Positions 5,934 through 64,000 of a stretch of 64,000 nt of DNA are shown piece after piece; within the stretch, counting starts at the first letter, position 1, and each line of letters opens with the position of its first letter. A model generated the notes under the pieces. That model saw nothing but the letters and a program-made list of their open reading frames with translations, did not search any database and was not told where the DNA came from. Both the position numbers and the translations under genes were made by a program. The stretch lies in the sequence record OR896820.1. One strand, 5' to 3'. The stretch is from Escherchia phage Stokescottia.

Positions 5934-6183
5934 TATACCCTCCTTCTCTAACTAAGACTACTATTATAACTCATTCGAGGGCGGATGTCAACAATATTTT
6001 ACTATAAAGTTCTGTAACATGATCTGAGTCAAAAAATTTTATTTGCCAACCTCTATTAAAAATTGTATAATCACGCACTCGTGTATGCGATATAAAATGA
6101 TTATCTAGTATCACACATCTCCCGTTAAAAGCAAGCAAATTTTTTATTTAAATGCAATATCATAGGCTTATTTAAAATTGTAG

Positions 6184-49508: not shown

Positions 49509-50230
49509 TCGGATTTGCACATGTTCTAGGGCAGTTTTTCACCTACTATAAATACCCTAGGCCGGTTTTCCTATACAGGGCGGTTATTTCTAGGAGACAT
49601 TTTTTGAAAACACATTTCCAGAAATTACTGTCGGATTTGCACATTGTGTTTCTAGAAATTTATGGTCGGATTTGCACAATTGCCTAAGTTTTCATGGACA
49701 CATAATCTCCTGAAAATGGCAGCATTATTTCGGGCCGAAGGCCCATGATTGCCTGAGTTTTTAGAGCCACAGAAATTTTCACTTGTCAAGCTATTTTGCC
49801 CCATTTTGCTAATAAAATTTTACTTTATCTCGCCCCAAGCCCAATTAACCCAAATTATCTCAACTCTTCCCCAAAAACGCAGCAAATCAGGTGCCCCGCA
49901 CCAAATATGCTGCCCCTCTAGCTTCTCCCTCTATTTTCTCTCGCTCTCTCATCTTCTCCCCAAACTCACACAATCACACGCCCTCTCATCGAAGTCACAA
50001 AAATCTTGTCGGATTCGCACATCTTAATCCTAGAAAAACCATGTCGGATTTGCACATACCCCACAGGATTCGAACGCAGTTCGAGATTGCTGGAGTTTTT
50101 GGGAAAATTCATTGTCGGATTTGCACACTATAAAAATTTTTCGGGTCGGATTTGCACACTACCAAAAATTGTCGGATTCGCACATACACGCCCGCACGTA
50201 ACACCCGTGGAGCAATGTCGGATTTGCACA
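49509..50230 (+). repeat. array of nine direct repeats GTCGGATT(T/C)GCACA with irregular spacing
   Basis: Copies at 49509, 49630, 49665, 50008, 50043, 50114, 50145, 50171, 50217; all same orientation. Confidence 0.85.
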
Positions 50231-50233
50231 AAA

Positions 50234-50255
50234 GCGCAGGGCAATTGCCCTGCGC
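50234..50255. repeat. perfect 22-bp palindrome GCGCAGGGCAATTGCCCTGCGC
   Basis: Read directly; immediately follows the last direct repeat. Confidence 0.85.
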
Positions 50256-50470
50256 TAAATACGAATGATAATAAGAATCATTCTCATTTAAAAAGCGGAA
50301 TGAGAATGATAATAATTCGCATTTAGAAAGTGAAACGAGAATCAATCTCATTTAAAAAGTGAAATGATTCTCGTTTAAAAAGCGGAATGAAAATTATTCA
50401 GGAAGTGAAACGATTCTCATTTAGAAAGTGAAATACAAATGAGAATGATTCGCATTTAAGAACGGAAGTG
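50256..50470 (+). repeat. degenerate tandem repeats (~25-30 bp unit, TC[TG]CATTTA[AG]AAAG[CT]G[AG]AA[CT]GA)
   Basis: About seven imperfect units read directly. Confidence 0.75.
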
Positions 50471-50600
50471 AGAAACACTGTTATTTAAGTTATCCACAGA
50501 CTTATTAACAGCACGATTTGACTTGACAAAATTCTAGCCATTTTGAAGCGTTATCAACAGACTTATCCACAACTTATCCTACTGTATAAATATACAGTAT
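50471..50600. repeat. left copy of ~130-bp imperfect inverted repeat with DnaA-box-like motifs and a LexA-box-like palindrome
   Basis: Aligns with the reverse complement of 54490-54620; contains TTATCCACA at 50490 and 50563 and CTGTATAAATATACAG at 50582. Confidence 0.75.
50582..50597. promoter_or_regulatory. LexA-box-like palindrome CTGT-N8-ACAG (also contains TATAAATA)
   Basis: ACTGTATAAATATACAGTA matches the gammaproteobacterial SOS-box consensus TACTGTATATATATACAGTA at 18 of 20 positions. Confidence 0.5.
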
Positions 50601-50965
50601 TCCTACGCAGTGAATAATTCTAATATAGCGTTAAAACGCTCTCAAACGCATTCTAACGCGTTTAATTTTGTTGGGGATACTAAAACAAGGGCAAAATTGG
50701 AGGAGGCTTGAAAATTAGTTAGCCCGCTAACGATCACACAAGGCGACACGTAACACCCTAACCATTAGCAGGCTAACCATCGCGGACGCGGTCAAATGAG
50801 AATGATTATCCTTTGAAAATTGGGGGCACTTCCTGATAGTTGCGCCCCGTGATTATTATAGTAGTGGGCAACCGTTACGCTTTGCCCACTCCCGCCACTC
50901 ATCTTGATGCCTAGACTTGCGACGGCGTACTAAAAACCGCTTGTACCAGTGATTAAACCATCGTT

Positions 50966-51169
50966 TCATAAATCCTCCTCCGGTAGTCGATGCGTGATCT
51001 TCTCCTCTTCCCTGTAGGAGTCTGCCAAATGCTGATAATAACCATCGTGATCATAAATCACTTTATCATACTCGCCACGCTCGACCGCTTGCCGGTTCTC
51101 CGGCGTATCGGGCACGTAAAAAACATCAACCATTGTACTGATTTTGGTTACAACAATTTTATTGCTCAT
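50966..51169 (-). CDS. hypothetical protein
   Basis: ORF track; last gene of the minus-strand cassette. Confidence 0.45.
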   Translation of the reverse strand: MSNKIVVTKISTMVDVFYVPDTPENRQAVERGEYDKVIYDHDGYYQHLADSYREEEKITHRLPEEDL

Positions 51170-51221
51170 AATAACGCTCCGTTACTATATAATCTCATTG
51201 CAATACACCAAAATTATATAG

Positions 51222-51437
51222 TTACTCATATTCTAGCTCGAAAATATCCTCACCATATAATTTGATTAAATCAATTAAATAAAACGCTGTGCCAGTATTA
51301 TTATTTCTTCTTATAAATCTATGATGAGCGTCTTTAAATACATTGAATACATCCCCTATTTTACCTACTCCCCATAAATCCTGTGTTAATTTTACCCGTT
51401 TAACCTTTAGCAACATATTCCAAGTAATTTCACTCAT
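51222..51437 (-). CDS. hypothetical protein
   Basis: ORF track; ATGA overlap with upstream gene. Confidence 0.45.
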   Translation of the reverse strand: MSEITWNMLLKVKRVKLTQDLWGVGKIGDVFNVFKDAHHRFIRRNNNTGTAFYLIDLIKLYGEDIFELEYE

Positions 51438-51778
51438 TGCGCCACCTTTCGAAACGCTGTTTCAATACTATCCGCAGTGGATTGAATATACGCGCCTTTC
51501 ATTATCAGGCGCTCAGTGCATACTTTGCGGAAAATATTAATAAAATCATCTTCATTTTCTGCAATTAATGCTTCACCCATAACTTGAACGTCACAAGATG
51601 CAAAAGTTAAAAATTGAAATGCTAGTTCACGGGCAACGACCGCATTGATTTTATAATGCGCCTTGCCCTCATAAATATTAATAACGCCCTTATAAGCTGG
51701 TGAAAGCTGATTCAAATAGTTTGCTAATAATGCTGGGCGGCAATTAGCAACAAAACGATTGCCCTCATAAATAACCAT
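51434..51778 (-). CDS. hypothetical protein
   Basis: Start at 51778 (MVIYEG). Confidence 0.5.
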   Translation of the reverse strand: MVIYEGNRFVANCRPALLANYLNQLSPAYKGVINIYEGKAHYKINAVVARELAFQFLTFASCDVQVMGEALIAENEDDFINIFRKVCTERLIMKGAYIQSTADSIETAFRKVAQ

Positions 51779-51901
51779 TTGACAGCCTCCCAATTAGATA
51801 GCCAGATAATAACATAAAGATCCCCAACGAAATGGGGTCATTTTTGAATAAGGTGGCGGTAAAACCGCCAACCATTGCAAGGGCAATAACGATAACGCTT
51901 T

Positions 51902-52114
51902 TCATAGTACCCCACGAAACGCAGCGTAAAAGGTGGCAAAGTGTTTAACCGTTTCAGCGATCACGTTGCCGCGCTTATCAAATTTTTTCTCGGTAACACG
52001 AAAGGCATTTTTGTTACGTGCTACATATTCGATTTTACAATCTTCCCGCTCGAACGTGTTAACATCCACCAGCTTAAAGCCTTTCGAACGTGCAAGAGAA
52101 ACGTTGCGGATCAT
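51902..52114 (-). CDS. hypothetical protein
   Basis: ORF track. Confidence 0.45.
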   Translation of the reverse strand: MIRNVSLARSKGFKLVDVNTFEREDCKIEYVARNKNAFRVTEKKFDKRGNVIAETVKHFATFYAAFRGVL

Positions 52115-52116
52115 TT

Positions 52117-52299
52117 TTATTCTCCTTTACTAGTCATGCAGCCCAGCAGATAAGAAAATACAGCAATGCCAGCACCAATAGTAACCATTGGTTTTGTATT
52201 TACTAGACCGCAGTAGGAATCCTGAATACCATAAGCGGTGGCGAAAAGAGTCAAAATAGCGCCCAAGATACCCGCCAGAATAGCTCGAAAAATAACCAT
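52117..52299 (-). CDS. small membrane protein
   Basis: Two hydrophobic helices. Confidence 0.45.
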   Translation of the reverse strand: MVIFRAILAGILGAILTLFATAYGIQDSYCGLVNTKPMVTIGAGIAVFSYLLGCMTSKGE

Positions 52300-52348
52300 T
52301 TGTAATACTCCCCTAGTTAGTGGGGCGAAAGTAACGCCCCGTTATTAA

Positions 52349-52579
52349 TTACATTAAAACAATTTTTGCCGCTTGTTTTTTGGTACAGTGTTCCGCTTTC
52401 AGGGTATCCAGCAAAAAGCCAGCCGTTTGCTGATCGATTTTATCGGCGTTGTATAGTTCTTGGATGGTGTTATAAGTTTTAGCAATGCCGAACTCCTGCA
52501 CCATGTCATGAATGATGACGCGGTTAGACACCCAGCCTTGAGCGGTAAACAGATGACTAGCAGAAGAATAAGCAACCAT
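52349..52579 (-). CDS. hypothetical protein
   Basis: Start at 52579 after RBS GGAGG. Confidence 0.5.
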   Translation of the reverse strand: MVAYSSASHLFTAQGWVSNRVIIHDMVQEFGIAKTYNTIQELYNADKIDQQTAGFLLDTLKAEHCTKKQAAKIVLM

Positions 52580-52684
52580 TTTAAGCCTCCAAATTTTTGG
52601 GAAAATTTTCAATCCACCGTTTTGGTGTAAAGGCATTATAACAAAAAAGGCCGCCATAAAAGGCGACCTTTACAAAACTTTACA

Positions 52685-53179
52685 CTAAACTACCTGTAAG
52701 GATTCAACATTGAAACATCGTTTCAGTTCGTCATGCAAGATAGCATATTCATCCCATCGGGTACTATCAGGAATATAAACAAGCTGTTTTAATCGGTTTG
52801 CGTATATTACCGCTTTATTGCCAATTATTTCCGCGCCACCATGTTTAATAATTAATTTCATGACGGAATTAATAGGATCGCCGCCGTTTACATATGCGCC
52901 GGATTTACTCAATTGATAATGATAAAGGCTTGCATATACGTTTTCATTTTCATACCATTCGCCCGATTCCTCGTCTTCGTAACCATCGCTACCAAAACGA
53001 GAAGCGTTATCAATAGCCATTTCATGAGCGAAAGCGTCCAGATCACAACCAGCGGGAACAAAGTGTTCCTCCGTCCAACCTTCCCCGCAATAGCCAGTAT
53101 GACAATCGACCAAAATGATCATATCATGTTTTGCCGTGCTCACTTCTCCCAGTGAGAAGCCATATTTTTCTTCTGACAT
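52685..53179 (-). CDS. acidic hypothetical protein
   Basis: Start at 53179 after RBS AGGAGG; Cys/His cluster VDCHTGYCGEGW. Confidence 0.55.
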   Translation of the reverse strand: MSEEKYGFSLGEVSTAKHDMIILVDCHTGYCGEGWTEEHFVPAGCDLDAFAHEMAIDNASRFGSDGYEDEESGEWYENENVYASLYHYQLSKSGAYVNGGDPINSVMKLIIKHGGAEIIGNKAVIYANRLKQLVYIPDSTRWDEYAILHDELKRCFNVESLQVV

Positions 53180-53243
53180 AATTAGCCTCCTATTAATTAA
53201 CAAGGGAATAGTAAAGCGGGGAAACAATCCCCGCTAAATATTA

Positions 53244-54230
53244 TTACTCGCTTTCGGTGTTAGTAGTAAAAGTAGAAATATCAATACCTTTCACCATTTC
53301 ATCAATCATTTCAGCAATATTGAAACTCTGTACCATTTCCAACATTGCCGCTTCCATTGCCGCCCCTGCTACCGCTTTCGCCTTTTGGTTAGTCGGGGCG
53401 TACTGGTCAACCGCTACACTCAGCAGGTTAGCGATCACTACACGACCAATCGGCGTATCAATATAACCTTTAATCATAAACGGTGCTTTTTTAGCCGCTA
53501 CTTTCGTGATTTGAGTTAGTGCAATTTTACCCGCTTCCAGTTTTGCAGCGTTTACAACAGCGGATTTATTAGCGGCAACGATGTTAGCAATCTTGGTCAT
53601 GGTGTTTTTTCCTTTGTTTTCAGTAGTTTGAGTGTTAGAATTTACAGCCTGATTTTCAACGTAAATACTTTCTTCTCTTTCGAAAGAGAATCCCGCACTT
53701 TCGACGTCGCCATCATATACATACGGGTATAATTCCGAGGGTAACAAAAAATTACCGTCGCCATCAAAAGCCATTATAGCGGTATATTGAGATCCGTCAT
53801 TATCCGGCTTATACCATCCAGCAGGTAAATACTTCCAGATAACATCTAAAAATCCCTCAATGCTAGAAAGTCCATTTATCAGATCAAGTCCAATAAGCTC
53901 AAAACCATTTATATTAAATGATTGACGGCCTGAATTGCTATGATACGCAACAATATTATTACCCTGCGCAACAATAAAATCGGTATCCGGCCCCGCTCCC
54001 CTGCCTGTAAAGATATGGCAATCCCGATTATATAAAACTAGCGTTGCCCCTTGCTTATATAACGGTAGAAAACTATCCATATCATAGGCGTCATACTCAT
54101 CAAAAAAGTTTTGATGAATAGTTTCAACCTTGTTAATAAAATGTTTAATGCTGGTTGACTTGCTACCGTCCAGCAGGTTGCGCAATGCACCTTTTAAAAC
54201 GGTGGCATTATCAGGTTTAAAAAGCCTCAT
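53244..54230 (-). CDS. hypothetical protein (first gene of cassette)
   Basis: Start at 54230 after RBS GAGGGAGG; ~330 aa with globular N-terminal half and Ala/Lys-rich helical C-terminal half. Confidence 0.55.
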   Translation of the reverse strand: MRLFKPDNATVLKGALRNLLDGSKSTSIKHFINKVETIHQNFFDEYDAYDMDSFLPLYKQGATLVLYNRDCHIFTGRGAGPDTDFIVAQGNNIVAYHSNSGRQSFNINGFELIGLDLINGLSSIEGFLDVIWKYLPAGWYKPDNDGSQYTAIMAFDGDGNFLLPSELYPYVYDGDVESAGFSFEREESIYVENQAVNSNTQTTENKGKNTMTKIANIVAANKSAVVNAAKLEAGKIALTQITKVAAKKAPFMIKGYIDTPIGRVVIANLLSVAVDQYAPTNQKAKAVAGAAMEAAMLEMVQSFNIAEMIDEMVKGIDISTFTTNTESE

Positions 54231-54489
54231 TTGTTCGGCCTCCCTCGTTAATCGGTGAGTGAATGATATAGATATTTGTTCACTAGGGGCAAGAAAAAAG
54301 AAAATGTTTTTTATTCCTTGCCTAGCGCCTAATTTTATGCTAACCGCGCAGCGGTGTAGTAAAGAGCAAAACACGGTGAAGCCACCAGGCCGACGCATTG
54401 AGGCTTTGCTTTAATATTACCTTGCAGCGTTTAGCTCGTTAGAATGCGATTTAGGCCGCTTAAAATTGATTGCAGTCGTTAACACTACC

Positions 54490-54620
54490 TTTTTACCCTG
54501 TATATTTATACAGTAGAATAACCTGTGGATAAGTCTGTGCAAAAGTCCTTATATCGCCGCCTATCGTGTCAAATCTTTTTGTGCTGTGGATAACATTGTG
54601 GATAACTTAAATGATAGTGG
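54490..54620. repeat. right copy of ~130-bp imperfect inverted repeat
   Basis: Reverse complement aligns with 50471-50600; DnaA-box-like 9-mers at 54524, 54585, 54597 and palindrome CTGTATATTTATACAG at 54498. Confidence 0.75.
54498..54513. promoter_or_regulatory. LexA-box-like palindrome upstream of the minus-strand cassette
   Basis: CTGTATATTTATACAGTA; on the minus strand reads CTGTATAAATATACAG about 285 bp upstream of the cassette start. Confidence 0.5.
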
Positions 54621-54639
54621 TTCTCACTTAGGCCGATGG

Positions 54640-54880
54640 TTTCTTATAGTTATTATTTACTGTAGTTATTATTTATTATAATTATTATTTCTCATTAATT
54701 TATATGTATATTATATATTATGTAATAGTTAGTTGGCTAATGAGATTTTCCGTGATTAATAGTCTGCTAATAATTTAATCCGTTACAATCCACCAGCATG
54801 ATTATCATCCTAGCAATTATTAGTCTGCTATTCTTCCAATACACACTAGCAAATAAAAGTCAATTAATTTATTTCATAAA
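54640..54880. other. strongly AT-rich block (possible DNA-unwinding element)
   Basis: Runs of TTATT/ATTAT with almost no G or C; flanked by DnaA-box-like motifs. Confidence 0.5.
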
Positions 54881-54886
54881 ATAAGT

Positions 54887-54923
54887 AGTTATCCACTGGA
54901 AAATAAAAGTCAAGTGGATAACT
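54887..54923. promoter_or_regulatory. palindromic pair of DnaA-box-like motifs (GTTATCCAC-N18-GTGGATAAC)
   Basis: Read directly; operator-like inverted repeat. Confidence 0.55.
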
Positions 54924-55368
54924 AGGAAAATTTCATTTTTGCTTTTGGGGATAAGTTATCAACAAGGCTAGAATGCGCCTAAAACGCTCCAGAACGCAAT
55001 AAAGTTTTTAGCCATCCCATCATAAGGGGATAGGCCGTTTATCGCTACCACGAGCTTTTTAGATTTTGTCAAGTAGGGCAAAGCAAATATAAATGAAAAA
55101 ATTACTTGCCTATCTGCTCTGTTTTGTGGTATTCGCGCGCCCGTTTCTTTTAATTTTAGGCCGTCGCCGGACGTGGTGCGGTGAATTTTGTCTTTACGTT
55201 TCTTTACAAAAATAGGGTTGCGCCATTTTCGGGAATCCCCTATTATTTATCACGTAGGGCGGCAATGACGAACTACACGGCGGGAAGTTTACCGCCGCGC
55301 TCTTTAAAAATTGGGTACATCTTAAAGCCTATCGGCGGTAAACTTATTCATTATAAGGAATCGACGAT

Positions 55369-55572
55369 ATGAAACAAACTTTATTGATCACTGGCAAGCC
55401 TAGCAAGGCACTAGATAGCAAAACAAAAAATTTGTTGACAGTAGCGCAAAGATCGGTAAAATATCGATTCACGCAGTACAAGAAAGGTCGCCAGCAAGGT
55501 TTAGAAATGATCTGGCGAAATATTATGATTGACCTGAAAGAAAATCATAAAAAATCTCAAAAAATTGTTTGA
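55369..55572 (+). CDS. small basic protein
   Basis: ORF track; RBS aggaa. Confidence 0.4.
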   Translation: MKQTLLITGKPSKALDSKTKNLLTVAQRSVKYRFTQYKKGRQQGLEMIWRNIMIDLKENHKKSQKIV

Positions 55573-55800
55573 CACCCTAGCCGATAGGCTTTAAGATGTA
55601 CCCAGTTCGACAAGAGCGATAACTTGATAAAATTTGACGGTCGGCACTTACCATAATGTGTCCCGCCCCCTAACTGGGATATAGCGGCCTACGTGGAGTT
55701 CTTTAAATTGATTATATTGGCGAGCGGATTGTTACTTATTACCTGCTACTTTCTAGCAGGTAATGCGGAACAATCCCCTAAATAACTTGGAGTTTATACT

Positions 55801-56052
55801 ATGCAAAACGTTATTACCGCGCCTAAAATTGGTCAATCCGTCTTCATTCCTTTCGTTACTAAAACGGATGAATTAACCGGAAAAGCCGAACGTATTAAAG
55901 GCGCGGCGCTTATGCCGTTTGATACAATCGACGCGGTATACGCTGAAACGGAACGTAGTAACAACGGCAAACCCGTTTTTAGCGTTCGCGTTAAATCCGG
56001 CGACGTTGTAAAGGTTGTTCAACGTAACGAAAAATGGGAAGCTGTTTTATAA
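55801..56052 (+). CDS. hypothetical protein
   Basis: ORF track; conserved upstream motif and GGAG RBS. Confidence 0.5.
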   Translation: MQNVITAPKIGQSVFIPFVTKTDELTGKAERIKGAALMPFDTIDAVYAETERSNNGKPVFSVRVKSGDVVKVVQRNEKWEAVL

Positions 56053-56150
56053 TCTAGTGTTAACTTTATATCCCCCTTATTTCAGGGGGATATAACGATT
56101 AACATTAAGTTAATCTAATCCCTTAAATTAAACAAACAGGAGTTTATATC

Positions 56151-56558
56151 ATGACTAACGCTAAAACCGCAAAATTTGCATGGAATGAAGAAAACACTCA
56201 AAAAGCTGTTTCCATGTATCAGCAATTAATCAACGAAAACGGTTTAGATTTTGCAAATAGCGACGGCCTGAAAGAGATTGCAAAAGCAGTAGGCGCGGCC
56301 TCCCCCGTATCCGTTCGGTCAAAATTGACCAGTGCAAAAGCCTATCAAAAAAGCGACAAGCCGCGCAAAGTTGGCGGCGGTAGTTCAATCCGCAAGGCTC
56401 ACTATGTGCGCGTTATTGCAAAACACGCTATCGATTCCGGCATTATCAAAGACGCCGACGATCTGGCAAGCCTTGAAAGTGCAAAATTGGAAACACTGGA
56501 CGCTGTAGCGCAATTGTTAGGCGTTGCCGATGAAGTGAAACAGGCCGCAGGGGAATAA
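56151..56558 (+). CDS. pre-early-type small protein (A2-like by size and position)
   Basis: 135 aa directly upstream of the A1-like gene; assignment by synteny and size only. Confidence 0.4.
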   Translation: MTNAKTAKFAWNEENTQKAVSMYQQLINENGLDFANSDGLKEIAKAVGAASPVSVRSKLTSAKAYQKSDKPRKVGGGSSIRKAHYVRVIAKHAIDSGIIKDADDLASLESAKLETLDAVAQLLGVADEVKQAAGE

Positions 56559-56648
56559 TAGTTATATCTTGCCCCCTTCTAGTGAGGGGGCAATAATATA
56601 ACTGTTTAGCGATAGTTATTTTCTTCCCTTAAATCAGGAGTTTTAAAA

Positions 56649-56846
56649 ATGATTTTCTTTCCTACTGAATCCTTAATTCTAGGCTTGTTTATTATGGCGG
56701 CCTCGTTATTGTTCGCTTATTTTCAAAATGATTTAGATTCGTATTATTTTAAACGCAAATCTAAATTGGCAAAGCGTTTAGGTCTGATTTGTTTTATTGC
56801 CGCCGTTGCTTGTGGTGTTAGTTCTAGCCTAGTGCCTTTAAATTAA
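56649..56846 (+). CDS. small membrane protein
   Basis: Two hydrophobic helices. Confidence 0.45.
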   Translation: MIFFPTESLILGLFIMAASLLFAYFQNDLDSYYFKRKSKLAKRLGLICFIAAVACGVSSSLVPLN

Positions 56847-56937
56847 TGTTGCAAATTATAACGCCTATTATTGGAGGCGTTATATTTGGCAATATTGCCA
56901 AAATTGAATTTAATCCCTTTAATGGAGTTTTATTACT

Positions 56938-58608
56938 ATGATTATTTCCGCAGAAAAACAAACCGTTATCCTGAAAATGGCCGCTGATTTCAATTTCTAC
57001 GGTAAACGCCTGCGCGCCACTAAATTGGAAGTTTGTGACGATATTTCGAAAGCGGTATACGATACTACTAAACACTCCACCACTATCTGCGACTGGCTGG
57101 AAGCAAATAAACCAGCGAAACCGAAAGCGGCAAAAGTAGCAAAAGCCATTAAAAACGATGAGCGCCCCGAAGCGGCTGGGATTGTTTCTAGTACCGTGGA
57201 ACAGTGGGAAGTAAAACAAGGTAAACGTTTTATTATTACGTCGATTCAAAATAATACTTTCCCGCATAAAAACTTTTTAGCCGCGCTGGAGCAATATGCT
57301 AAATTTATCGGCGCTGATTTGCTTGTTTCTAAGTATATTTATAATAAAAACGGATTCCAAAATGGGGAAGGTGCTGATGGGATCAAATATGATCCCGCTT
57401 TCGATAAATATATTTGCAGCAAAAACGTGTTTTTAAATAACCGCCGTTTCGCTTTCATGGCTGAAATTAATGTTTTGCCAACCGCAGATTATCCGCTTTC
57501 TGGATTTGCAGAAACTGCAACGGCTTTAAATATCGAGGGTCTGGCAATTGGTCACGCTAAAATCACCGCCGAAAGCGTGCCAGCTTTAAAAGGTGAAGTA
57601 GTGCGCCGTATGTATTCAACCGGAACGGCAACGCTCAAAAACTACATTCAGCAGAAAGCAGGACAGAAAGCGGAAGCACTTCATAATTTTGGCGCGCTTA
57701 TTGTTGAGTTCGACGACGACGGGGAGTTTTTTGTTCGCCAGCTTGAAACAATGGACGAAAGCGGCATGTTTTACGATTTGAATATTTGCGCCACTCCTTC
57801 GGGATGTTTTGAAACGTCGGGGCATGTTTTAGGCTTGCAGTATGGCGATATTCATGCAGAAAAACTAGATGAGGCTTGCGCTCAAGCGTCTTGGGGTCAT
57901 GGTGATACTTATGGGCTTGTGGATATTCTCAAACCGAAATATCAGTTTGTACATGATGTGCATGATTTTACATCCCGCAATCATCATAACCGCGCTTCTG
58001 GTGTATTCCTAGCGAAACAGTACGCCGCCGGACGTGATAAGGTTATTGATGATCTTATCGATACGGGGCGCGTGCTGGAATCAATGGAGCGTGATTTTTC
58101 TCAAACAATCATTGTTGAATCAAATCACGATTTGGCGTTATCCCGTTGGCTGGATGATCGAAATGCTAACATCAAAGACGATCCAGCAAACGCCGAACTA
58201 TATCACAGCCTAAACGCTGCAATCTATGCGGCTATTGCAAAGCAGGACGATACTTTCAACGTGCTAGATTATGCCTTGCGTAAGGTAGCAGGTTGTGAAT
58301 TTAACGCCATTTTCCTGACCACTGACCAATCGTTTAAAATTGCAGGCATTGAATGCGGCGTACACGGTCACAACGGCATAAACGGCAGCCGTGGCAATCC
58401 TAAGCAGTTTAAGAAATTGGGCAAGTTAAACACTGGTCATACTCATACGGCAAGCATTTACGGCGGCGTATATACCGCTGGCGTAGCAGGTAGTCTGGAT
58501 ATGGGTTACAACGTTGGCGCGTCAAGCTGGACGCAAACCCATTTAATTACATACGCAAACGGTCAGCGCACTTTGATTGACTTTAAGAATGGTAAATTCT
58601 TTGCGTAA
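56938..58608 (+). CDS. A1: A1-like pre-early protein with C-terminal metallophosphoesterase domain
   Basis: 556 aa; C-terminal half has GDIHAE, HDVHD, SNHD, GVHGHNG, TGHTHT blocks in calcineurin-like order; size matches what I recall for T5 A1. Confidence 0.55.
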   Translation: MIISAEKQTVILKMAADFNFYGKRLRATKLEVCDDISKAVYDTTKHSTTICDWLEANKPAKPKAAKVAKAIKNDERPEAAGIVSSTVEQWEVKQGKRFIITSIQNNTFPHKNFLAALEQYAKFIGADLLVSKYIYNKNGFQNGEGADGIKYDPAFDKYICSKNVFLNNRRFAFMAEINVLPTADYPLSGFAETATALNIEGLAIGHAKITAESVPALKGEVVRRMYSTGTATLKNYIQQKAGQKAEALHNFGALIVEFDDDGEFFVRQLETMDESGMFYDLNICATPSGCFETSGHVLGLQYGDIHAEKLDEACAQASWGHGDTYGLVDILKPKYQFVHDVHDFTSRNHHNRASGVFLAKQYAAGRDKVIDDLIDTGRVLESMERDFSQTIIVESNHDLALSRWLDDRNANIKDDPANAELYHSLNAAIYAAIAKQDDTFNVLDYALRKVAGCEFNAIFLTTDQSFKIAGIECGVHGHNGINGSRGNPKQFKKLGKLNTGHTHTASIYGGVYTAGVAGSLDMGYNVGASSWTQTHLITYANGQRTLIDFKNGKFFA

Positions 58609-58664
58609 TTAAATTATTACCCTAGCGGCTTGAAATATAGCCGCTATTACAGGAGCTAAATTAA

Positions 58665-58943
58665 ATGGCTATTAAAATTAATCTTCCCAACGTTAAAAAC
58701 ACCGCCGATACATGGTCGATTGATACTATATTGCGCGGCACTGTATACCGCAATTTAAAAGATAATAATTGTTATATTTATCAAAATGAATTAAACGGCC
58801 ACACTTATATAATTGAGTCCGATGGTTTTTGTTCTTTTGAGACTGATTATGAAGCGAAAGATCATATACAGGCAAATGATATTCCTGACGTATGGAAAGA
58901 AACAAATCTCGCTTTTGTTGTAAGTCTTGAAGCTAACAAATAA
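58665..58943 (+). CDS. hypothetical protein
   Basis: ORF track. Confidence 0.45.
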   Translation: MAIKINLPNVKNTADTWSIDTILRGTVYRNLKDNNCYIYQNELNGHTYIIESDGFCSFETDYEAKDHIQANDIPDVWKETNLAFVVSLEANK

Positions 58944-58981
58944 ATTAAATCCCTTATTAAATTAATTGGAGTTTTATAAAT

Positions 58982-59374
58982 ATGAAAAAGCAAAATATTC
59001 CTTTCGATCGCGCTCAATCCTCAATTGTTCTGGTTTATTCTAATGGCGAGCGTTATCACGTCGAGGCAGGGCACGTTATTGATGAATTATTAGACTTCAA
59101 TGACGCTTTACAGGTTACTACCTTTGCCTATACGCAAGGCCGCGCAAGTAGTTACATTAAGGCCGCAGGTGTTTATGTTGATACGGTGAAACAAGAAACG
59201 ATTATCATCGACGCCGTAAAATCCGGCCTTGCCTTTGCAGTTGTCGCGCCTTGCCCCGCTTGCCTCGATGATCACCTAGCGAGCGCAAAGGTATATACCT
59301 GCGCGGGTATTCGTTCCCATGTATCCGGCGAAGATATTAGTTTTATTGCTGATGCATTGGCTTATGGTCTTTAA
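58982..59374 (+). CDS. hypothetical protein
   Basis: ORF track. Confidence 0.5.
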   Translation: MKKQNIPFDRAQSSIVLVYSNGERYHVEAGHVIDELLDFNDALQVTTFAYTQGRASSYIKAAGVYVDTVKQETIIIDAVKSGLAFAVVAPCPACLDDHLASAKVYTCAGIRSHVSGEDISFIADALAYGL

Positions 59375-59453
59375 TAGTTGATTTATTATTGCCCGCTGAT
59401 AAATAGCGGGCAATGCTGAATTAATCTAATCCCTTTAATGGAGAACGTAACAA

Positions 59454-60188
59454 ATGAATAAAGCTATTATTAATTCTTTCCGTAATTTCCCGCATATTTC
59501 CCGCGTCATGATTTGGGATTTAGACGGCACTATCATTAATTCTTTCCATCGTGTAGCGCCTTGCTTTGATAGTGAGGGCAATTTAGATTTAAATAAGTAT
59601 AAAAATGAAGCCTGCAAACATCATTTAATAATGCAAGATACTTTATTGCCATTGGTTGAATATATGCGCCAGTGCATGAATGACGCAAATACTTTAAACA
59701 TTATTTGCACCGCTCGATTGATGAGCAAGTCGGATTACTATTTCTTGCGCAAACAAGGATTGCGAGGGCGTGGAAATAGCAATATCCGCGTGTTTTCCCG
59801 CGATACACTGCACAAATATTTTGAGGCTGATAAAGTTAGCGAAATATACCACAGCAAAGACGCAGTTTATAAATCTTATTACTTTGAGCTATTTAAACAG
59901 CTATATCCGAATGCTGATTTTACAATGATTGACGATCATAAAGGCGTGCTATCAGCGGCGGCATCATACGGGTTTAAAACGCTGGACGCGCAAGCCGTTA
60001 ACGATATTCTATCAATCGGCGTGGCATTGATAGGTGAAACCTTTATCGATGAATCTCTCGACGATGATAATGATTATCAGTTCCTAGCTGATCGCTTGAA
60101 ATTATGTTGGGAAAGTATGACCGAAGAAGAACGCGCAGAATATAGTTGCAGCCCGCAACAATATATTGAGAAATTAAAAGTTGCGTAA
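59454..60188 (+). CDS. dmp: HAD-family phosphatase (5'-deoxyribonucleotidase Dmp-like)
   Basis: N-terminal MIWDLDGTIINS matches HAD motif I; 244 aa in a pre-early-like context; symbol by analogy only. Confidence 0.45.
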   Translation: MNKAIINSFRNFPHISRVMIWDLDGTIINSFHRVAPCFDSEGNLDLNKYKNEACKHHLIMQDTLLPLVEYMRQCMNDANTLNIICTARLMSKSDYYFLRKQGLRGRGNSNIRVFSRDTLHKYFEADKVSEIYHSKDAVYKSYYFELFKQLYPNADFTMIDDHKGVLSAAASYGFKTLDAQAVNDILSIGVALIGETFIDESLDDDNDYQFLADRLKLCWESMTEEERAEYSCSPQQYIEKLKVA

Positions 60189-60201
60189 TAATTAAAGTTG
60201 A

Positions 60202-60239
60202 AATAGTCACGGTGTGTAACGATAACATGCCGTGACTAT
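60202..60239. terminator. palindromic hairpin between convergent genes
   Basis: ATAGTCACGG...CCGTGACTAT inverted repeat. Confidence 0.5.
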
Positions 60240-60345
60240 TAGCTTGCTAAGTACCGGGCGGTAATGAGACTCATTCTCATCTGGGAGGCCACTGGACACA
60301 CCTCCATGTGTAATCTTATGAAATTTGGCAAAAGTCAAATTAGCG

Positions 60346-60561
60346 CTATTTACGGGCTGACTGCCTGAGAATGGACTGCCATAGATGGTCAGTCTTAACA
60401 AGATTATTGATGTACTCAATAGCTTCACCAAATCTCATAAATCCTTCTGGAATTTCCGAAGACTTAGGAAAAACTTGTAGCATCCCTTGGGTGATACCCA
60501 TCTTTTCAAGTTCTTCTTGAGTTATCTCAAACTCCCCGAAAAACCGCCCGAATTCTTTCAT
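60346..60561 (-). CDS. hypothetical protein
   Basis: Start at 60561 (MKEFGRFF). Confidence 0.4.
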   Translation of the reverse strand: MKEFGRFFGEFEITQEELEKMGITQGMLQVFPKSSEIPEGFMRFGEAIEYINNLVKTDHLWQSILRQSARK

Positions 60562-60803
60562 GAGCTTCTCCTGTCTACTGGCTTGTCTCCTGATTCTGAC
60601 ATACGAAATCTCTTCCGCGACGCCCGAGATCCATCCGACCACTCCCGTTCAAACTCCGCACGTTTCTCGTCAAACTTCCGCTCCCTTTCCGCAATCTCCC
60701 GCGACACTTCCGCAATATATTTACGATGCTTGTTGATTGCCGCAGTCGTCCCGAAAACTCCCGCGAGTATCCCGATAATAAAAGCAATTATAATACTAAA
60801 CAT
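60558..60803 (-). CDS. membrane-anchored basic protein
   Basis: N-terminal TM helix then Arg/Glu-rich tail. Confidence 0.45.
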   Translation of the reverse strand: MFSIIIAFIIGILAGVFGTTAAINKHRKYIAEVSREIAERERKFDEKRAEFEREWSDGSRASRKRFRMSESGDKPVDRRSS

Positions 60804-60990
60804 CTAATTCCCTCTCAATTTGCAGAATACGGGTGCTATCACAACGTTGCAGTAGTACTAGCTTTTCTAGAGCAACCTGTTGTTGTTTTACCTGGGCTTC
60901 TAGAGTTTTTAGGCGGAGATACACGATACGAGAGACAATGAGGATTACCCAGACTAATATTACTATTAGTGTAACTGTCACTTCCACCAT
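60796..60990 (-). CDS. membrane-anchored coiled-coil protein
   Basis: N-terminal TM helix then coiled coil. Confidence 0.45.
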   Translation of the reverse strand: MVEVTVTLIVILVWVILIVSRIVYLRLKTLEAQVKQQQVALEKLVLLQRCDSTRILQIERELDV

Positions 60991-61398
60991 TTACGCTTCT
61001 CCAATAGTAAGGTTTCAATTCTAGCTAAGTGATTATCTAAAATACACTGCCCAATAATCACAATCCCTAGTAGCGCAATAATTACCCATTCCATTAAATC
61101 CACCCCGCCATAGCTGCTAGCCAAAAACCTACGAAAATAAAGAATAAGATAGTTCCGAATCCGAAACTATTTACCCAGCTATCATATACCTCTCCACGTC
61201 TGCTCTTTCTTTTATTTGACATATCTTTCATGCTCCAGTAAATATGATATTTTAAAATATTTTATAGTTTGTGCATAACCAACCATGCTCGTGACTTCCT
61301 AGAGGGCTTTTCACTTTCTTGCATAGTGTTTTCTGCCAATATACCATCCAAAAAATAAAAAATTTAGTTTACTTGGATGTCTTTTTGTTTTATACTAA

Positions 61399-61665
61399 TT
61401 ACAAGTAATTAGATTGTTCTAGTTTAAATTTACAATCACCATATTTAAGATCAAACTGACTGAGATCCCACCACCCAAACTTAGTACGGAGCTGTACTAC
61501 TGGAAAGCGATCTCCCTTAATACGAACTTTTTGAACCTTGAGGCCGTAATGTTCTTCTCCCGCACCACCAAAAGATTTTACAAATCCCGTACAAAATGGT
61601 TTAGGAGCAGGTGCACAACCAGATAACATAACTGCGGCAACTAGTGCAATCACAAACTTTTTCAT
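61399..61665 (-). CDS. llp: small lipoprotein (Llp-like lytic-conversion/superinfection-exclusion candidate)
   Basis: Signal peptide with lipobox LSGC; 88 aa; divergent from the adjacent receptor-binding gene. Confidence 0.5.
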   Translation of the reverse strand: MKKFVIALVAAVMLSGCAPAPKPFCTGFVKSFGGAGEEHYGLKVQKVRIKGDRFPVVQLRTKFGWWDLSQFDLKYGDCKFKLEQSNYL

Positions 61666-61750
61666 ATTTATCTCTCCATTTCTAATTTATGAATCTATTA
61701 TAGCAAAATAGAGGGATGAAAGCAAATACATTTTTATAATAGGAGATTAT

Positions 61751-63508
61751 ATGGGTTTTTTCGCTGGAAAATATAGCGATGGTAAGACCGTACTATCTTT
61801 AAATACTGAATCTGGTGGTGACATTAATCGTCACTATAGTCCAAATAATAATAGTATTTTTCATAGTGATATGCCATTTGTCCTAGTTGATGGTACCTAT
61901 GAGGCTCCATTAGGCAATGCTGGAAATGGGTTTTTTGTATGTCAGATGCCCTCTGACATAATAAATATTAAATCTAATGACCCAGGTAGAGTTATACTAA
62001 CTGCTATTGAGATTAATGGTACTCATAGGGCTTTTCTTAACGGTACTCAGAGTAAGGTGGGTCAAACTATAGTTGCTACTCAGGCAGACCCTTTTAGGTC
62101 TTTTGCTAGTGTTTCCCAGACCAGTGGATTTGCCTTTGGTAATAGCCTGGCATCTGGTACATATAACTATAACCCATCTATAGGTCATGAAGAATCTATT
62201 TCTAGGAATGGTACTGGGGGAACCACCCTACATAGTACTTATCACGGTATAGTTAGGCCAGGTGGAGGAGCTCCCGTAGGGGTTACTGTTGCAGAAGCTT
62301 TTTCACAGCTGGGTTTTCCTACTAATAGTAGTACAGTACCTATAGATGGTAATAATCCATACTACTGGGATCCAGGATGGATGTCTCCTTTAGGGTCAGC
62401 ACACAGAGGACACGATTGGTTCTATGTTTGTAACTCCAATATACGTGGGTATGGTGGGGTAAGACAAGGTCTTCCTGGCAATGTAAATACTATGTACCAC
62501 GATGGGGGTAACAGATTTGTTTGTAGGGGTTCTACAACTAATTTAGCTAATCAATCTGGTAATGCTACAATATTACAGGATTGGTATAACATAACTCCTA
62601 CTAAGGTTATTTGGTATGTACTTAATCTGAGATATTCTAATGGTAATATGGGTATCTCTGGTAATCCTTTTACTGGTTCAGATATTCTTATCTCTCCCTC
62701 TAACTTCATAATTAAAGGAGTAAGTCTTCCTAATACTGGATATAAGTTTATTAACCAGAATGCTTTCGGTAACTTAGGCTATAGGCCAGATATGGAATAC
62801 GTCGGAAATAACGCAGCGTACACTGGAGCCTTCGGGGATACCACTGCAAGGTGTGAACTTGTAGGCTCTAGTAATGGAAGTTTATGGTCTCCTGTAGACT
62901 ATGGAGGGGCTAAGTCTCAAATTAGTATTTACAAATTCGGAGCGGGTAAGCAATGGTACGTAAACTCAAGTAATAATACTATTGGTAATGAACATGGTGT
63001 TGTTTGGGGGCCTTCTTCAGTTCCTCTGAGACTTTTTAGTGGAAATGTTGGTAGTTCTTACATGGGGGATGATATTACCCCTTACTACCCAGGAACTGGA
63101 GATAGATATGTGGCTTTATCTACTATTGGACTAGGTATTCCAGGAGGTAATGCTACTGTTATTCTTACTACTGAAGTTATATCTGGTAATCTTAATTGTG
63201 CTGGTGTTCCAGCTAATACATGGAATAATGGTGTATTTCAGGTGCAAGGTAGAAGGGCTTATAGTTATAGTAATGGAGATGCAGTATTCCACCAGATTTT
63301 AACATTACCTGTAGGTTACTTAGTACCATTTCATACTACATCTGCATTTAGATATACACCTAATAACGCACTGAGTAGAAATAGTTTCATATATACAGTT
63401 AAAAATCTAGGAAATGGAAATGTAGAGTTAGGGGTAGTTATGCACGTAAGTTTAGGTAGTGCAGTTTTCCTACCTAGATTAAGAGTAACAGTTCAACGCC
63501 TTACCTAA
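61751..63508 (+). CDS. putative receptor-binding tail protein
   Basis: 585 aa, Gly/Asn/Ser/Thr-rich with no catalytic motifs; paired with the divergent lipoprotein gene. Confidence 0.5.
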
Positions 63509-63518
63509 AGGAGGAAAT

Positions 63519-64000
63519 ATGGCAAATGATGTATTAGTACCGGATCTTATGTCCCCTGAAGGGATGGATGTAATTGAAGCTTATTTACAGTGTGGCAGTG
63601 ATGTGCCTTCTGCCGCACGTAGTCTTGGGATGTCCGAAATTGCTTTTCGAGATATTATGAATCGTAGTGAAGTTAAGAACTACTTAAACGATATTTTTAT
63701 GGAGAGTGGTTTCCGTAACAGAGATCGTTTATTTGGTGTTCTAGATGAAGTTATCAAGCGTAAACTAGAGGAACTAGAAGAGACCGGCATGGGTTCTGAC
63801 CAAGATATTATGGATATTCTCTGGAAGGCACATAAAATGAAAATGGAAGAGATGAAGATGATGGTAGAATTGGAGAAAGTGAAGGCAGCAGCCCGTACTC
63901 CAGCTAACCAGACCAACATCCAGAATAATATTATTGCTGGAGCTGGGGATCAAAACTACATGGACTTAATTACTTCCCTAGCTACTGGAGGTAAGAAGTA
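63519..64000 (+). CDS. HTH-containing protein, possible terminase small subunit (3' end beyond window)
   Basis: Open to window end; N-terminal helix-turn-helix-like [17 protein letters not shown] then coiled coil. Confidence 0.35.

What the first reader, a model, noticed from the sequence alone, without database searches (positions are those of the whole stretch)
54490..54960. Cluster of DnaA-box-like 9-mers flanking a very AT-rich block (oriC-like architecture)
At least five perfect TTATCCACA/TGTGGATAA motifs (50490, 50563, 54524, 54585, 54597) plus near-perfect palindromic copies at 54887-54923 lie around a ~240-bp almost pure A/T block. Roughly one perfect match to a fixed 9-mer is expected by chance on both strands of 64 kb, so five clustered copies are unlikely to be random. 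This suggests host-DnaA binding for replication initiation, transcriptional control or DnaA titration.
Basis: partly seen in the sequence, partly recalled or inferred. Interest (0 to 1): 0.65.

Follow-up and report, generated by a model that had tools for sequence, protein, structure and literature searches.

The report
Known T5 DnaA-box repeats, plus LexA boxes
The DnaA-box cluster is real, but it is the already-described repeat element in the terminal repeat of a T5-like phage, tied to the phage's two-step DNA injection and not to a replication origin; each element also carries a near-perfect LexA (SOS) box that I could not find reported.

Summary
There are exactly five perfect TTATCCACA sites (0.86 expected), all inside two 132-nt inverted-repeat elements at 54498-54629 and 50466-50597.

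The window is a T5-like Salmonella phage, 100% identical to L6jm in this region. Both elements lie in its roughly 10.5-kb terminal repeat, which is the first-step-transfer DNA. They map base-for-base onto T5's annotated IRC-spacer-IRD (6022-6152) and IRD'-spacer-IRC' (9332-9463). Their paired DnaA boxes, 3 bp apart, were reported in 1987 and analysed in 25 phages by Davison (bioRxiv 2020). He called them "reminiscent of oriC" and proposed a DnaA-based injection-stop model. Papers from 2023 and 2026 say this is still untested.

The origin reading is not supported:
- There are no 13-mers, no IHF core and no GATC cluster.
- The AT-rich tract is a variable tandem repeat, 34-205 bp among close relatives and 34 bp in T5.
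- T5 origins are reported near mid-genome.

Two results go beyond the literature I could search:
- Each element ends in a near-consensus LexA box.
- The DnaA-plus-LexA module persists at the same two positions in Serratia, Aeromonas, Vibrio and Klebsiella-type relatives whose flanking DNA no longer aligns.

Most likely these are host-factor landing pads acting in DNA-transfer pausing or pre-early gating.

The parts
49764..60297 (.). One copy of the phage terminal-repeat unit (first-step-transfer DNA). The genome's left end is at 60297, so DNA enters the cell in descending window coordinates.
   Evidence: Mapped from the identical left and right terminal repeats of L6jm (10,386 bp). The window joins repeat and unique DNA on both sides.
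54498..54629 (-). Proximal element, homologous to T5 IRC-spacer-IRD ('Repeat Region 2'). It holds four same-direction DnaA boxes and one LexA-like box.
   Evidence: It is the 132-nt inverted-repeat arm I1, 75% complementary to 50466-50597. blastn maps it to T5 AY587007 6022-6152, annotated there as inverted repeats C and D.
54524..54532 (-). Perfect DnaA box TTATCCACA
54536..54544 (-). Consensus DnaA box TTTTGCACA, 3 bp from the box at 54524
54585..54593 (-). Perfect DnaA box
54597..54605 (-). Perfect DnaA box, 3 bp from the box at 54585
54496..54515 (.). LexA-like SOS box CCCTGTATATTTATACAGTA (T5 'palindrome D' type). It sits between TTTACC and TAGAAT on the + strand.
   Evidence: 3 mismatches to the 20-mer LexA consensus, with 0 of 100 shuffles giving any hit. 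PWM score 22.6 bits against 13-24.5 for E. coli sites. Promoter-like hit at 54492..54519.
54640..54690 (+). Three 16-bp AT-rich tandem repeats (TTTCTTATAGTTATTATTT), a length-variable tract
   Evidence: Family D12. Absent from T5. The tract is 34-205 bp among close relatives.
54644..54743 (.). Core of the AT-rich block: 86% A+T over these 100 bp, the highest in the window
54889..54921 (.). Inverted pair of one-mismatch boxes, TTATCCACT (+ at 54889, - at 54913), with 11-bp arms and a 15-nt loop
   Evidence: Conserved in relatives that lack the HNH-gene insertion and absent from T5.
54946..54964 (.). Back-to-back one-mismatch boxes: TTATCCCCA (-) and TTATCAACA (+)
50466..50597 (+). Distal element, homologous to T5 IRD'-spacer-IRC' in the injection-stop (iss) region ('Repeat Region 3')
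   Evidence: Inverted-repeat arm I1. Maps to T5 9332-9463.
50490..50510 (+). Box pair: TTATCCACA, then gac, then TTATTAACA
   Evidence: (D17)
50551..50571 (+). Box pair: TTATCAACA, then gac, then TTATCCACA
50580..50599 (.). Near-consensus LexA box TACTGTATAAATATACAGTA
   Evidence: 1 mismatch to TACTGTATATATATACAGTA. PWM score 26.1 bits, above every E. coli site in the set.
49509..50231 (+). Nine copies of TCGGATTTGCACAT (T5 'direct repeat D'), straddling the inner boundary of the terminal repeat
   Evidence: Family D5. T5 annotation.
50245..50488 (+). 35-nt and 76-nt direct and inverted repeats (T5 DRC/DRE/palindrome type) next to the distal element
   Evidence: Families D1, D2, I4 and I7
53244..54230 (-). 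First gene of the rightward pre-early operon (T5 gene 011 homologue). The two elements bracket this operon.
56151..56558 (+). A2 (DNA-binding protein needed for second-step transfer)
56938..58608 (+). A1 (DNA transfer protein)
59454..60188 (+). dmp (5'-deoxyribonucleotidase), the gene nearest the left genome end

Best explanation
What it is. The cluster at 54.5 kb is the IRC-spacer-IRD element of a T5-like phage's terminal repeat. It is the inverted partner of the IRD'-spacer-IRC' element at 50.47-50.60 kb in the injection-stop (iss) region.

Anatomy. Each element looks like a landing pad for host DNA-binding proteins. It has four DnaA boxes, all pointing the same way, in two pairs spaced by 3 bp with the pairs 61 bp apart. 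It also has one near-consensus LexA box at the end that faces the other element. Together the two elements bracket the rightward pre-early operon.

How it most likely works (inferred). As the first ~8% of the genome enters, host DnaA and probably LexA load onto these sites. The resulting nucleoprotein complexes help pause or anchor the DNA at the first-step/second-step boundary, or block RNA polymerase there, until phage proteins A1 and A2 allow transfer to resume. It is not a replication origin.

Shown versus inferred. Shown here: the identity of the element, its anatomy, and its conservation. Inferred only: protein binding and any role in transfer.
For: Identity.
- The region is 100% identical to Salmonella phage L6jm and about 92% identical to many Tequintavirus genomes.
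- Gene order is dmp-A1-A2, then the non-coding region, then the gene-011 operon.
- The terminal repeat spans 49764-60297.
- The 132-nt inverted repeat (I1) maps onto the features annotated in T5 as IRC/IRD and IRD'/IRC'.

Prior description.
- Davison 2020 describes eight paired DnaA boxes in these elements in 25 phages and proposes a membrane-DnaA injection stop.
- Papers from 2023 and 2026 list DnaA boxes as a feature of the iss. The 2023 paper says experimental studies of their role are lacking, and the 2026 paper calls second-step transfer poorly understood.

A host factor rather than merely conserved DNA.
- In 60 unique elements from 40 loci, the boxes vary only among box-like variants.
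- Serratia, Aeromonas, two Vibrio lineages, Klebsiella-type and metagenomic T5-like genomes (A1 34-75% identical) carry 1-14 perfect boxes against 0.13-0.27 expected. The boxes sit at two sites upstream of A1.
- In those genomes only the boxes and the CTGT-N8-ACAG palindrome still align.
- Phages whose A1 homologue lacks the N-terminus, and which are not T5-like, have essentially none.

LexA box.
- The two sites have 1 and 3 mismatches to the 20-mer consensus. They score 26.1 and 22.6 bits, and the next best site in the 64 kb scores 12.6.
- The consensus and several of the sites used to build the scoring matrix appear in PMC3009722 Table 4.

Link to the transfer boundary.
- In five genomes with both repeat copies on record, the distal module lies about 92-94% of the way along the repeat. 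This includes one phage with a 12.85-kb repeat, where the module sits at 11.9 kb.
- Davison reports first-step DNA bands of about 9.6 kb and about 5.8 kb, which match the two elements.
Against: - No binding or genetic data exist for DnaA or LexA on this DNA.
- Box columns are no better conserved than the non-box flanks of the element (0.91 against 0.90-0.95). Among close relatives the whole element is under constraint, not the boxes alone.
- It is unclear how proteins bound inside the cell would stop DNA that is still outside it.
- From my own knowledge, T5 grows on recA1 laboratory strains, so LexA cleavage cannot be required for second-step transfer.
- Some relatives lack part or all of the proximal element.
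Confidence: 0.5

Rival explanations
1. Transcriptional gate or insulator. DnaA and LexA bound at the two elements act as operators or roadblocks for host RNA polymerase on the rightward pre-early operon. The proximal element would lie in the leader or at a promoter. The distal element would lie at the operon's end and keep transcription from running into DNA at the entry point.
For: - The proximal element lies in the 1.1-kb divergent intergenic region between the two pre-early operons.
- Its LexA box sits exactly between TTTACC and TAGAAT with a 16-bp spacer. From memory, this is the recA promoter layout.
- A TAGCCA-18-TATAAT match on the minus strand (54739..54710), conserved with T5, would read through the element.
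- The two elements bracket the operon as an inverted pair.
Against: - The distal element has no promoter-like context, and the -35-like hexamer is not kept in more distant relatives.
- The experimentally mapped pre-early promoters lie elsewhere.
- According to Davison, the distal (iss) copy is the one kept in all his types, not the promoter-proximal one.
Confidence: 0.2
2. Sites for phage proteins. The repeats are recognised by A2 and/or A1, for example as the cleavage or synapsis sites in Davison's restriction-and-circularisation model. Their likeness to host boxes would then be incidental or secondary.
For: - A2 is annotated as a DNA-binding protein, and A1 and A2 are required for second-step transfer.
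- The whole 132-bp element, including non-box flanks, is conserved.
- The modules occur only in phages with full-length A1.
Against: - In relatives with A1 only 31-46% identical, the motifs remain exactly at the host DnaA and LexA consensus while everything else diverges. A co-evolving phage protein and its site would be expected to drift.
- The LexA-box scores exceed those of genuine E. coli operators.
Confidence: 0.12
3. DnaA-dependent replication origin. DnaA boxes on both sides of an AT-rich unwinding element start phage DNA replication.
For: - Eight perfect or near-perfect boxes within 440 bp flank the most AT-rich tract of the window.
- Three AT-rich tandem repeats sit 35 bp from a box pair.
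- The tandem pair with 3-bp spacing is common in other viral contigs, where it may mark origins.
Against: - No 13-mer matches, no IHF core and no GATC in 1.5 kb.
- The AT tract varies from 34 to 205 bp among close relatives and is 34 bp in T5.
- The right-hand box cluster is missing from T5-type genomes, where an HNH gene is inserted.
- T5 origins are reported near the genome centre, and the replication genes arrive only with second-step DNA.
- T5 encodes its own candidate initiator helicase, D2.
Confidence: 0.04
4. Decoy or titration. The sites soak up free DnaA and LexA to disturb host replication initiation or the SOS response.
For: High-affinity-type sites for two host regulators are present in two or four elements per genome.
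Against: - About 8-16 DnaA sites and 2-4 LexA sites per infecting genome are few next to the host's own sites and protein pools (my own knowledge).
- T5 destroys host DNA within minutes anyway.
- Fixed positions and orientation in the family are not needed for titration.
Confidence: 0.04

Closest known systems
T5/BF23 iss-associated repeats: IRC-spacer-IRD and IRD'-spacer-IRC' with paired DnaA boxes (first reported in 1987 according to Davison 2020; T5 GenBank record AY587007; Davison, bioRxiv 10.1101/866236)
   Same: - Same position in the terminal repeat.
- Same 131-132-bp inverted pair.
- Same four boxes per element in pairs 3 bp apart.
- Same neighbouring DRD, DRC and palindrome repeats.
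- Direct sequence homology to T5.
   Different: - Nothing essential differs; this is a member of that family.
- This phage has all eight boxes (five perfect), where T5 has seven.
- It has a 98-bp tract including the 3x16-bp AT-rich repeats, where T5 has 34 bp and a nearby HNH-gene insertion.
- I did not find the palindrome next to the boxes described as a LexA box.
E. coli oriC
   Same: R1/R4-type perfect boxes next to an AT-rich tract. Davison also calls the arrangement 'reminiscent of oriC'.
   Different: - No 13-mer unwinding repeats, GATC cluster or IHF site.
- All four boxes of an element point the same way.
- The AT tract is length-variable.
- It is present once per terminal repeat in DNA that enters before any replication gene.
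Non-origin DnaA-box clusters of the chromosome (datA, DARS)
   Same: Clusters of strong DnaA boxes away from an origin that act by binding DnaA rather than by starting replication (my own knowledge).
   Different: - datA needs an IHF site, and none is found here.
- There is no evidence for an effect on the DnaA nucleotide state.
- Here the cluster is paired with a LexA box and duplicated in inverted orientation.
LexA operators (SOS boxes), e.g. recA, umuDC, tisAB
   Same: CTGT-(AT-rich)8-ACAG palindrome. It has 1 and 3 mismatches to the consensus and scores within or above the range of known operators. In the proximal element it lies between -35-like and -10-like hexamers.
   Different: - It sits in a virulent phage's non-coding repeat.
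- The distal copy has no promoter context.
- No regulated gene is evident.

Membership tests
T5-type iss-associated DnaA-box inverted repeats | Lies in the terminal repeat of a T5-like genome, between the A2-A1-dmp operon and the gene-011 operon | tested here: met
T5-type iss-associated DnaA-box inverted repeats | A partner of about 131 bp in inverted orientation in the non-coding region at the inner end of the repeat | tested here: met
   Inverted repeat I1, 132 nt and 75% complementary. Both arms map to T5 6022-6152 and 9332-9463.
T5-type iss-associated DnaA-box inverted repeats | Two pairs of DnaA or DnaA-like boxes per element, with the members of each pair 3 bp apart | tested here: met
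   Families D17 and D19 have 61-bp spacing.
T5-type iss-associated DnaA-box inverted repeats | Neighbouring DRD direct repeats and palindromes | tested here: met
   Nine copies of TCGGATTTGCACAT at 49509-50231 (D5), as in the T5 annotation
T5-type iss-associated DnaA-box inverted repeats | Acts in cis to stop DNA transfer after about 8% of the genome | not testable with these tools
   Position only: the distal module lies at about 92-94% of the repeat length in five genomes.
DnaA-dependent replication origin (oriC type) | Cluster of DnaA boxes | tested here: met
DnaA-dependent replication origin (oriC type) | Conserved AT-rich unwinding element with 13-mer-type repeats next to the boxes | tested here: not met
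   An AT-rich tract is present. No 13-mer match within 2 mismatches lies nearby. The tract is a 34-205 bp variable repeat and is minimal in T5.
DnaA-dependent replication origin (oriC type) | GATC cluster and IHF site (E. coli type) | tested here: not met
   No GATC between 53882 and 55386. No WATCAANNNNTTR site in 49-56 kb.
DnaA-dependent replication origin (oriC type) | Replication starts here, or the fragment replicates autonomously | not testable with these tools
   Davison reports T5 origins near the genome centre.
LexA operator (SOS box) | CTGT-N8-ACAG palindrome with an AT-rich core, scoring like known operators | tested here: met
   Exact in 29 of 31 distal and 24 of 29 proximal unique elements.
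LexA operator (SOS box) | Overlaps a promoter that it represses | tested here: inconclusive
   Proximal copy: TTTACC-16-TAGAAT. Distal copy: no comparable hexamers.
LexA operator (SOS box) | Bound by LexA | not testable with these tools
   No data found
datA-like DnaA titration locus | DnaA-box cluster with an essential IHF site | tested here: not met
   No IHF core site

The most novel reading that the evidence does not exclude
The cis-acting pause or stop signal for two-step DNA transfer in the whole T5 family (Demerecviridae) is a composite host-factor module. It consists of a near-consensus LexA box plus an array of DnaA boxes. One copy lies at the first-step boundary and an inverted copy lies about 4 kb inside it. 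It is conserved from Escherichia and Salmonella phages to Vibrio and Aeromonas phages even though the surrounding DNA no longer aligns. Under this reading, host LexA and DnaA, not DNA structure alone, hold the incoming genome until A1 and A2 act. The LexA component appears unreported. It is easy to test genetically, because lexA(Def) and lexA(Ind-) hosts are viable.
Probability: 0.3. Interest if true: 0.75.

Novelty: already known. Interest (0 to 1): 0.38.

Why it matters
How T5 halts injection after about 8% of its genome has been an open question since the 1960s. A 2026 paper still calls second-step transfer poorly understood.

The flagged DnaA boxes are not new. They are the best current lead.

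- The boxes, together with a LexA box, are the only sequence kept at these positions across distantly related family members. That argues that host proteins read them.
- LexA offers a far easier genetic handle than the essential DnaA.

If binding is shown, it would be a clear case of a virulent phage using host regulators as structural parts of its DNA-delivery programme. If it is not shown, the region remains an ordinary, already-catalogued repeat.

Tried and rejected
- Plasmid origin. Megablast against plasmids gave only a 33-bp chance-sized match.
- Host-derived DNA. No match to 5,426 E. coli genomes.
- Known RNA. An Rfam scan of 48.5-56.5 kb gave only a sub-threshold microRNA hit on the 54889-54921 hairpin.
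- E. coli 13-mer unwinding repeats, IHF core and GATC cluster. None found near the boxes.
- Strong T5 promoter. From memory I searched for the PN25 core sequence and found no match within 3 mismatches.
- T5's annotated promoter P3. It falls in DNA that does not align with this window because T5 has an HNH-gene insertion there.
- Box conservation. I expected box columns to stand out against the rest of the element among close relatives. They do not (0.91 against 0.90-0.95 for the flanks). Only distant relatives separate boxes from flanks.
- LexA cleavage as the trigger for second-step transfer. I rejected this because T5 plates on recA1 strains (my own knowledge).
- The 1976 origin-mapping paper (PMC515544) is not held, so the origin location rests on Davison's citation.
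- Two literature searches failed on term length.

Full report
**1. Observation**

- TTATCCACA occurs exactly five times in the 64-kb window, at 50490 and 50563 (+) and 54524, 54585 and 54597 (-). The expected number is 0.86, and no shuffle out of 100 reached five.
- The relaxed consensus TTWTNCACA adds 54536. The boxes at 54524/54536 and 54585/54597 then form two pairs, each separated by 3 bp, with the pairs 61 bp apart (D19).
- One-mismatch sites at 54889 (+) and 54913 (-) (TTATCCACT), 54946 (-) (TTATCCCCA) and 54956 (+) (TTATCAACA) confirm the 'near-perfect palindromic copies'.
- The AT block is the most AT-rich stretch of the window at 60, 100, 150 and 240 bp (93, 86, 81 and 77.5% A+T). It is real, but 'almost pure A/T' over 240 bp overstates it.
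- Two of the five perfect boxes lie 4 kb away and belong to a second element.

**2. What the DNA is**

- The region is 100% identical to Salmonella phage L6jm and about 92% identical to many Tequintavirus (T5-like) genomes. It does not match plasmids.
- The genes to the right are A2 (56151-56558), A1 (56938-58608) and dmp (59454-60188). To the left, on the other strand, is the homologue of T5 gene 011.
- I compared L6jm's identical left and right terminal repeats with the window. The repeat unit spans 49764-60297, and the genome's left end is at 60297. The window comes from an assembly with a single collapsed repeat copy.
- Both box clusters therefore lie in the first-step-transfer (FST) DNA, which enters the cell first, in descending window coordinates.

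**3. The element**

- The repeat search finds a 132-nt inverted repeat, 50466-50597 against 54498-54629, 75% complementary and 3.9 kb apart (I1).
- blastn maps the arms onto T5 (AY587007) 9332-9463 and 6022-6152. The T5 GenBank record annotates these as inverted repeats D'/C' and C/D.
- The nine TCGGATTTGCACAT repeats at 49509-50231 are T5's 'direct repeat D'.
- The finding's core is therefore 'Repeat Region 2' of the T5 left terminal repeat. The boxes at 50.5 kb belong to 'Repeat Region 3', which holds the injection stop signal (iss).

**4. Prior knowledge**

- Davison (bioRxiv 10.1101/866236, 2020) states that a DnaA box and variants were seen in this region in 1987.
- He compares 25 T5-like phages and reports eight boxes 'always in pairs separated by 3 bp', two in each of IRC, IRD, IRD' and IRC'. 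He calls this 'reminiscent of oriC'.
- He argues against a replication role. T5 origins map near the centre of the genome, and the replication genes are not yet in the cell.
- He proposes that membrane-bound DnaA holds the incoming DNA.
- A 2026 PNAS paper still lists DnaA boxes among iss features and calls second-step transfer poorly understood.
- I found no experimental test. The finding as written is already known.

**5. Testing the origin reading**

- Around the boxes there is no match to the E. coli 13-mer within two mismatches and no IHF core site in 49-56 kb.
- There is no GATC between 53882 and 55386, although the window averages one per 290 bp.
- The AT-rich tract next to the box pair contains three 16-bp tandem repeats (D12) that are absent from T5.
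- Among close relatives this tract ranges from 34 to 205 bp in steps of roughly one repeat length. A unit that expands and contracts freely, and is nearly absent from the type phage, is unlikely to be an essential unwinding element.
- The right-hand group of box-like sites (54889-54964) is conserved only in relatives without the HNH-gene insertion and is missing from T5.
- T5 also encodes its own candidate initiator helicase, D2.
- I give the origin reading about 4%.

- The palindrome at the inner end of each element (T5 'palindrome D') reads TACTGTATAAATATACAGTA at 50580-50599 and CCCTGTATATTTATACAGTA at 54496-54515.
- These are 1 and 3 mismatches from the E. coli LexA consensus TACTGTATATATATACAGTA. 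No shuffle gave any such hit.
- I built a scoring matrix from E. coli SOS boxes recalled from memory. The consensus and several of these sites appear in PMC3009722 Table 4.
- On this matrix the two sites score 26.1 and 22.6 bits. Known operators score 13-24.5, and the next best site in the window scores 12.6.
- CTGT-N8-ACAG is exact in 29 of 31 distal and 24 of 29 proximal unique elements. Variation is confined to the AT core.
- Davison's text does not mention LexA or SOS, and no paper in the library links T5 or T5-like phages with LexA.
- I could not read the 1987, 2005 and 2015 papers, so 'unreported' is provisional.

- Among close relatives the whole 132-bp element is conserved. Box columns score 0.91, the non-box flanks 0.90-0.95, and the central spacer 0.75. 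Those genomes cannot single out the boxes.
- I therefore fetched distant relatives through A1 homology.
- Serratia phage Kamaji, Aeromonas phage TS3, Vibrio phages GRLPWR and D325, Klebsiella-type and metagenomic T5-like genomes have A1 34-75% identical. Each carries 1-14 perfect TTATCCACA sites against 0.13-0.27 expected.
- These sites cluster at two places upstream of A1. They are often in 3-bp-spaced pairs next to an AT-core CTGT-N8-ACAG palindrome.
- In the most distant of these relatives (Aeromonas and Vibrio phages), blastn aligns little beyond those motifs.
- One metagenomic relative has 14 perfect boxes in 3.3 kb.
- Among contigs encoding only N-terminally truncated A1 homologues, which have different genome sizes and base composition, 27 of 29 have no perfect box and none has a box-plus-palindrome module.
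- In five genomes with both repeat copies on record, the distal module lies about 92-94% of the way along the repeat. This holds even where the repeat is 12.85 kb.
- The element is absent from E. coli genomes and present in 540 phage records, almost always unannotated.
- Motifs that stay at the host consensus while all else drifts point to host DnaA and LexA as the readers rather than a co-evolving phage protein.

**8. Mechanism**

*Shown:*
- the identity of the element, its anatomy, and its conservation;
- the positional link to the first-step boundary.

*Inferred:*
- DnaA and LexA bind;
- binding matters for pausing or anchoring the DNA, or for blocking RNA polymerase at the operon ends, until A1 and A2 act.

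*My estimates:*

| Claim | Probability |
|---|---|
| Identity as the T5 repeat element | about 0.97 |
| DnaA binds in vivo | about 0.75 |
| LexA binds in vivo | about 0.65 |
| Role in two-step transfer | about 0.4 |
| Transcriptional gate as the main role | about 0.2 |
| Phage-protein sites | about 0.12 |
| Replication origin | about 0.04 |
| Titration of host DnaA/LexA | about 0.04 |

*Support for a transfer role:*
- The module tracks the repeat boundary.
- Davison reports first-step DNA bands of about 9.6 and 5.8 kb.
- The distal copy is the one present in all of Davison's phage types.

*Open problems:*
- How proteins inside the cell would stop DNA still outside it is not explained.
- T5 grows on recA1 strains (my own knowledge), so LexA cleavage cannot be the release step.

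**9. Verdict**

The feature is an already-known element of T5-like phages, so the finding itself scores low for novelty. The LexA box and the family-wide conservation give a modest added value, because they make an old question easier to test.

Noticed in passing
window 50580-50599 and 54496-54515: The palindrome beside the DnaA boxes (T5 'palindrome D') is a near-consensus LexA SOS box. These are the only two strong LexA-type sites in the 64 kb. I found no mention of this in the searchable T5 literature.
   Followed up: yes
L244 4381-4621 and 6841-7801 (also L245): A metagenomic T5-like contig (A1 34% identical) has 14 perfect TTATCCACA boxes within 3.3 kb upstream of A1, plus one LexA-like palindrome.
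   Followed up: partly
window 54640-54690: The AT-rich 16-bp tandem repeat next to the proximal element varies in copy number. The tract is 34-205 bp among close relatives.
   Followed up: yes
window ~54750-54990 versus T5 (L003) ~5500-5940: This intergenic spot is an insertion hot-spot. T5 and about a third of relatives carry an HNH endonuclease gene here instead of the 54889-54964 box-like sites.
   Followed up: partly
L044-L163 (IMG/VR): The perfect tandem pair TTATCCACAnnnTTATCCACA occurs in more than 120 viral contig stretches, and only 6 are T5-like. Thirty of the non-T5 stretches hold 4-9 perfect boxes and may be phage or plasmid origins, or host oriC DNA binned as viral.
   Followed up: partly
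window 49509-50231: The nine TCGGATTTGCACAT repeats straddle the inner boundary of the terminal repeat (49764). This suggests a role in making or recognising the repeat end rather than in injection.
   Followed up: no
window 55298-55336 and 55580-55618: A 39-nt inverted repeat (87% complementary) encloses two strong promoter-like sites (TTGACA-16-TAAAAT at 55435 and TTGACA-17-TAAGAT at 55569). These are probably T5's IRA/IRA' around pre-early promoters P2 and P1.
   Followed up: no
window 59800-64000: The window runs from the terminal repeat straight into the right-end unique genes (receptor-binding protein, terminase), so its source is an assembly with one collapsed repeat copy. This part is only 96.4% identical to L6jm, against 100% at 53.5-56.5 kb, which hints at a mosaic relative.
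   Followed up: partly
L217-L243, L246, L248: A1 homologues that lack the first ~70-95 residues occur in many phages that are not T5-like (other genome sizes, GC up to 67%). They have no box-plus-palindrome module. The N-terminal part of A1 may be specific to the two-step-injection lineage.
   Followed up: no
window 54710-54739 (- strand): TAGCCA-18-TATAAT is conserved between this phage and T5 inside otherwise variable AT-rich DNA. It would direct transcription through the proximal element towards gene 011. It is not annotated as a promoter in T5.
   Followed up: no
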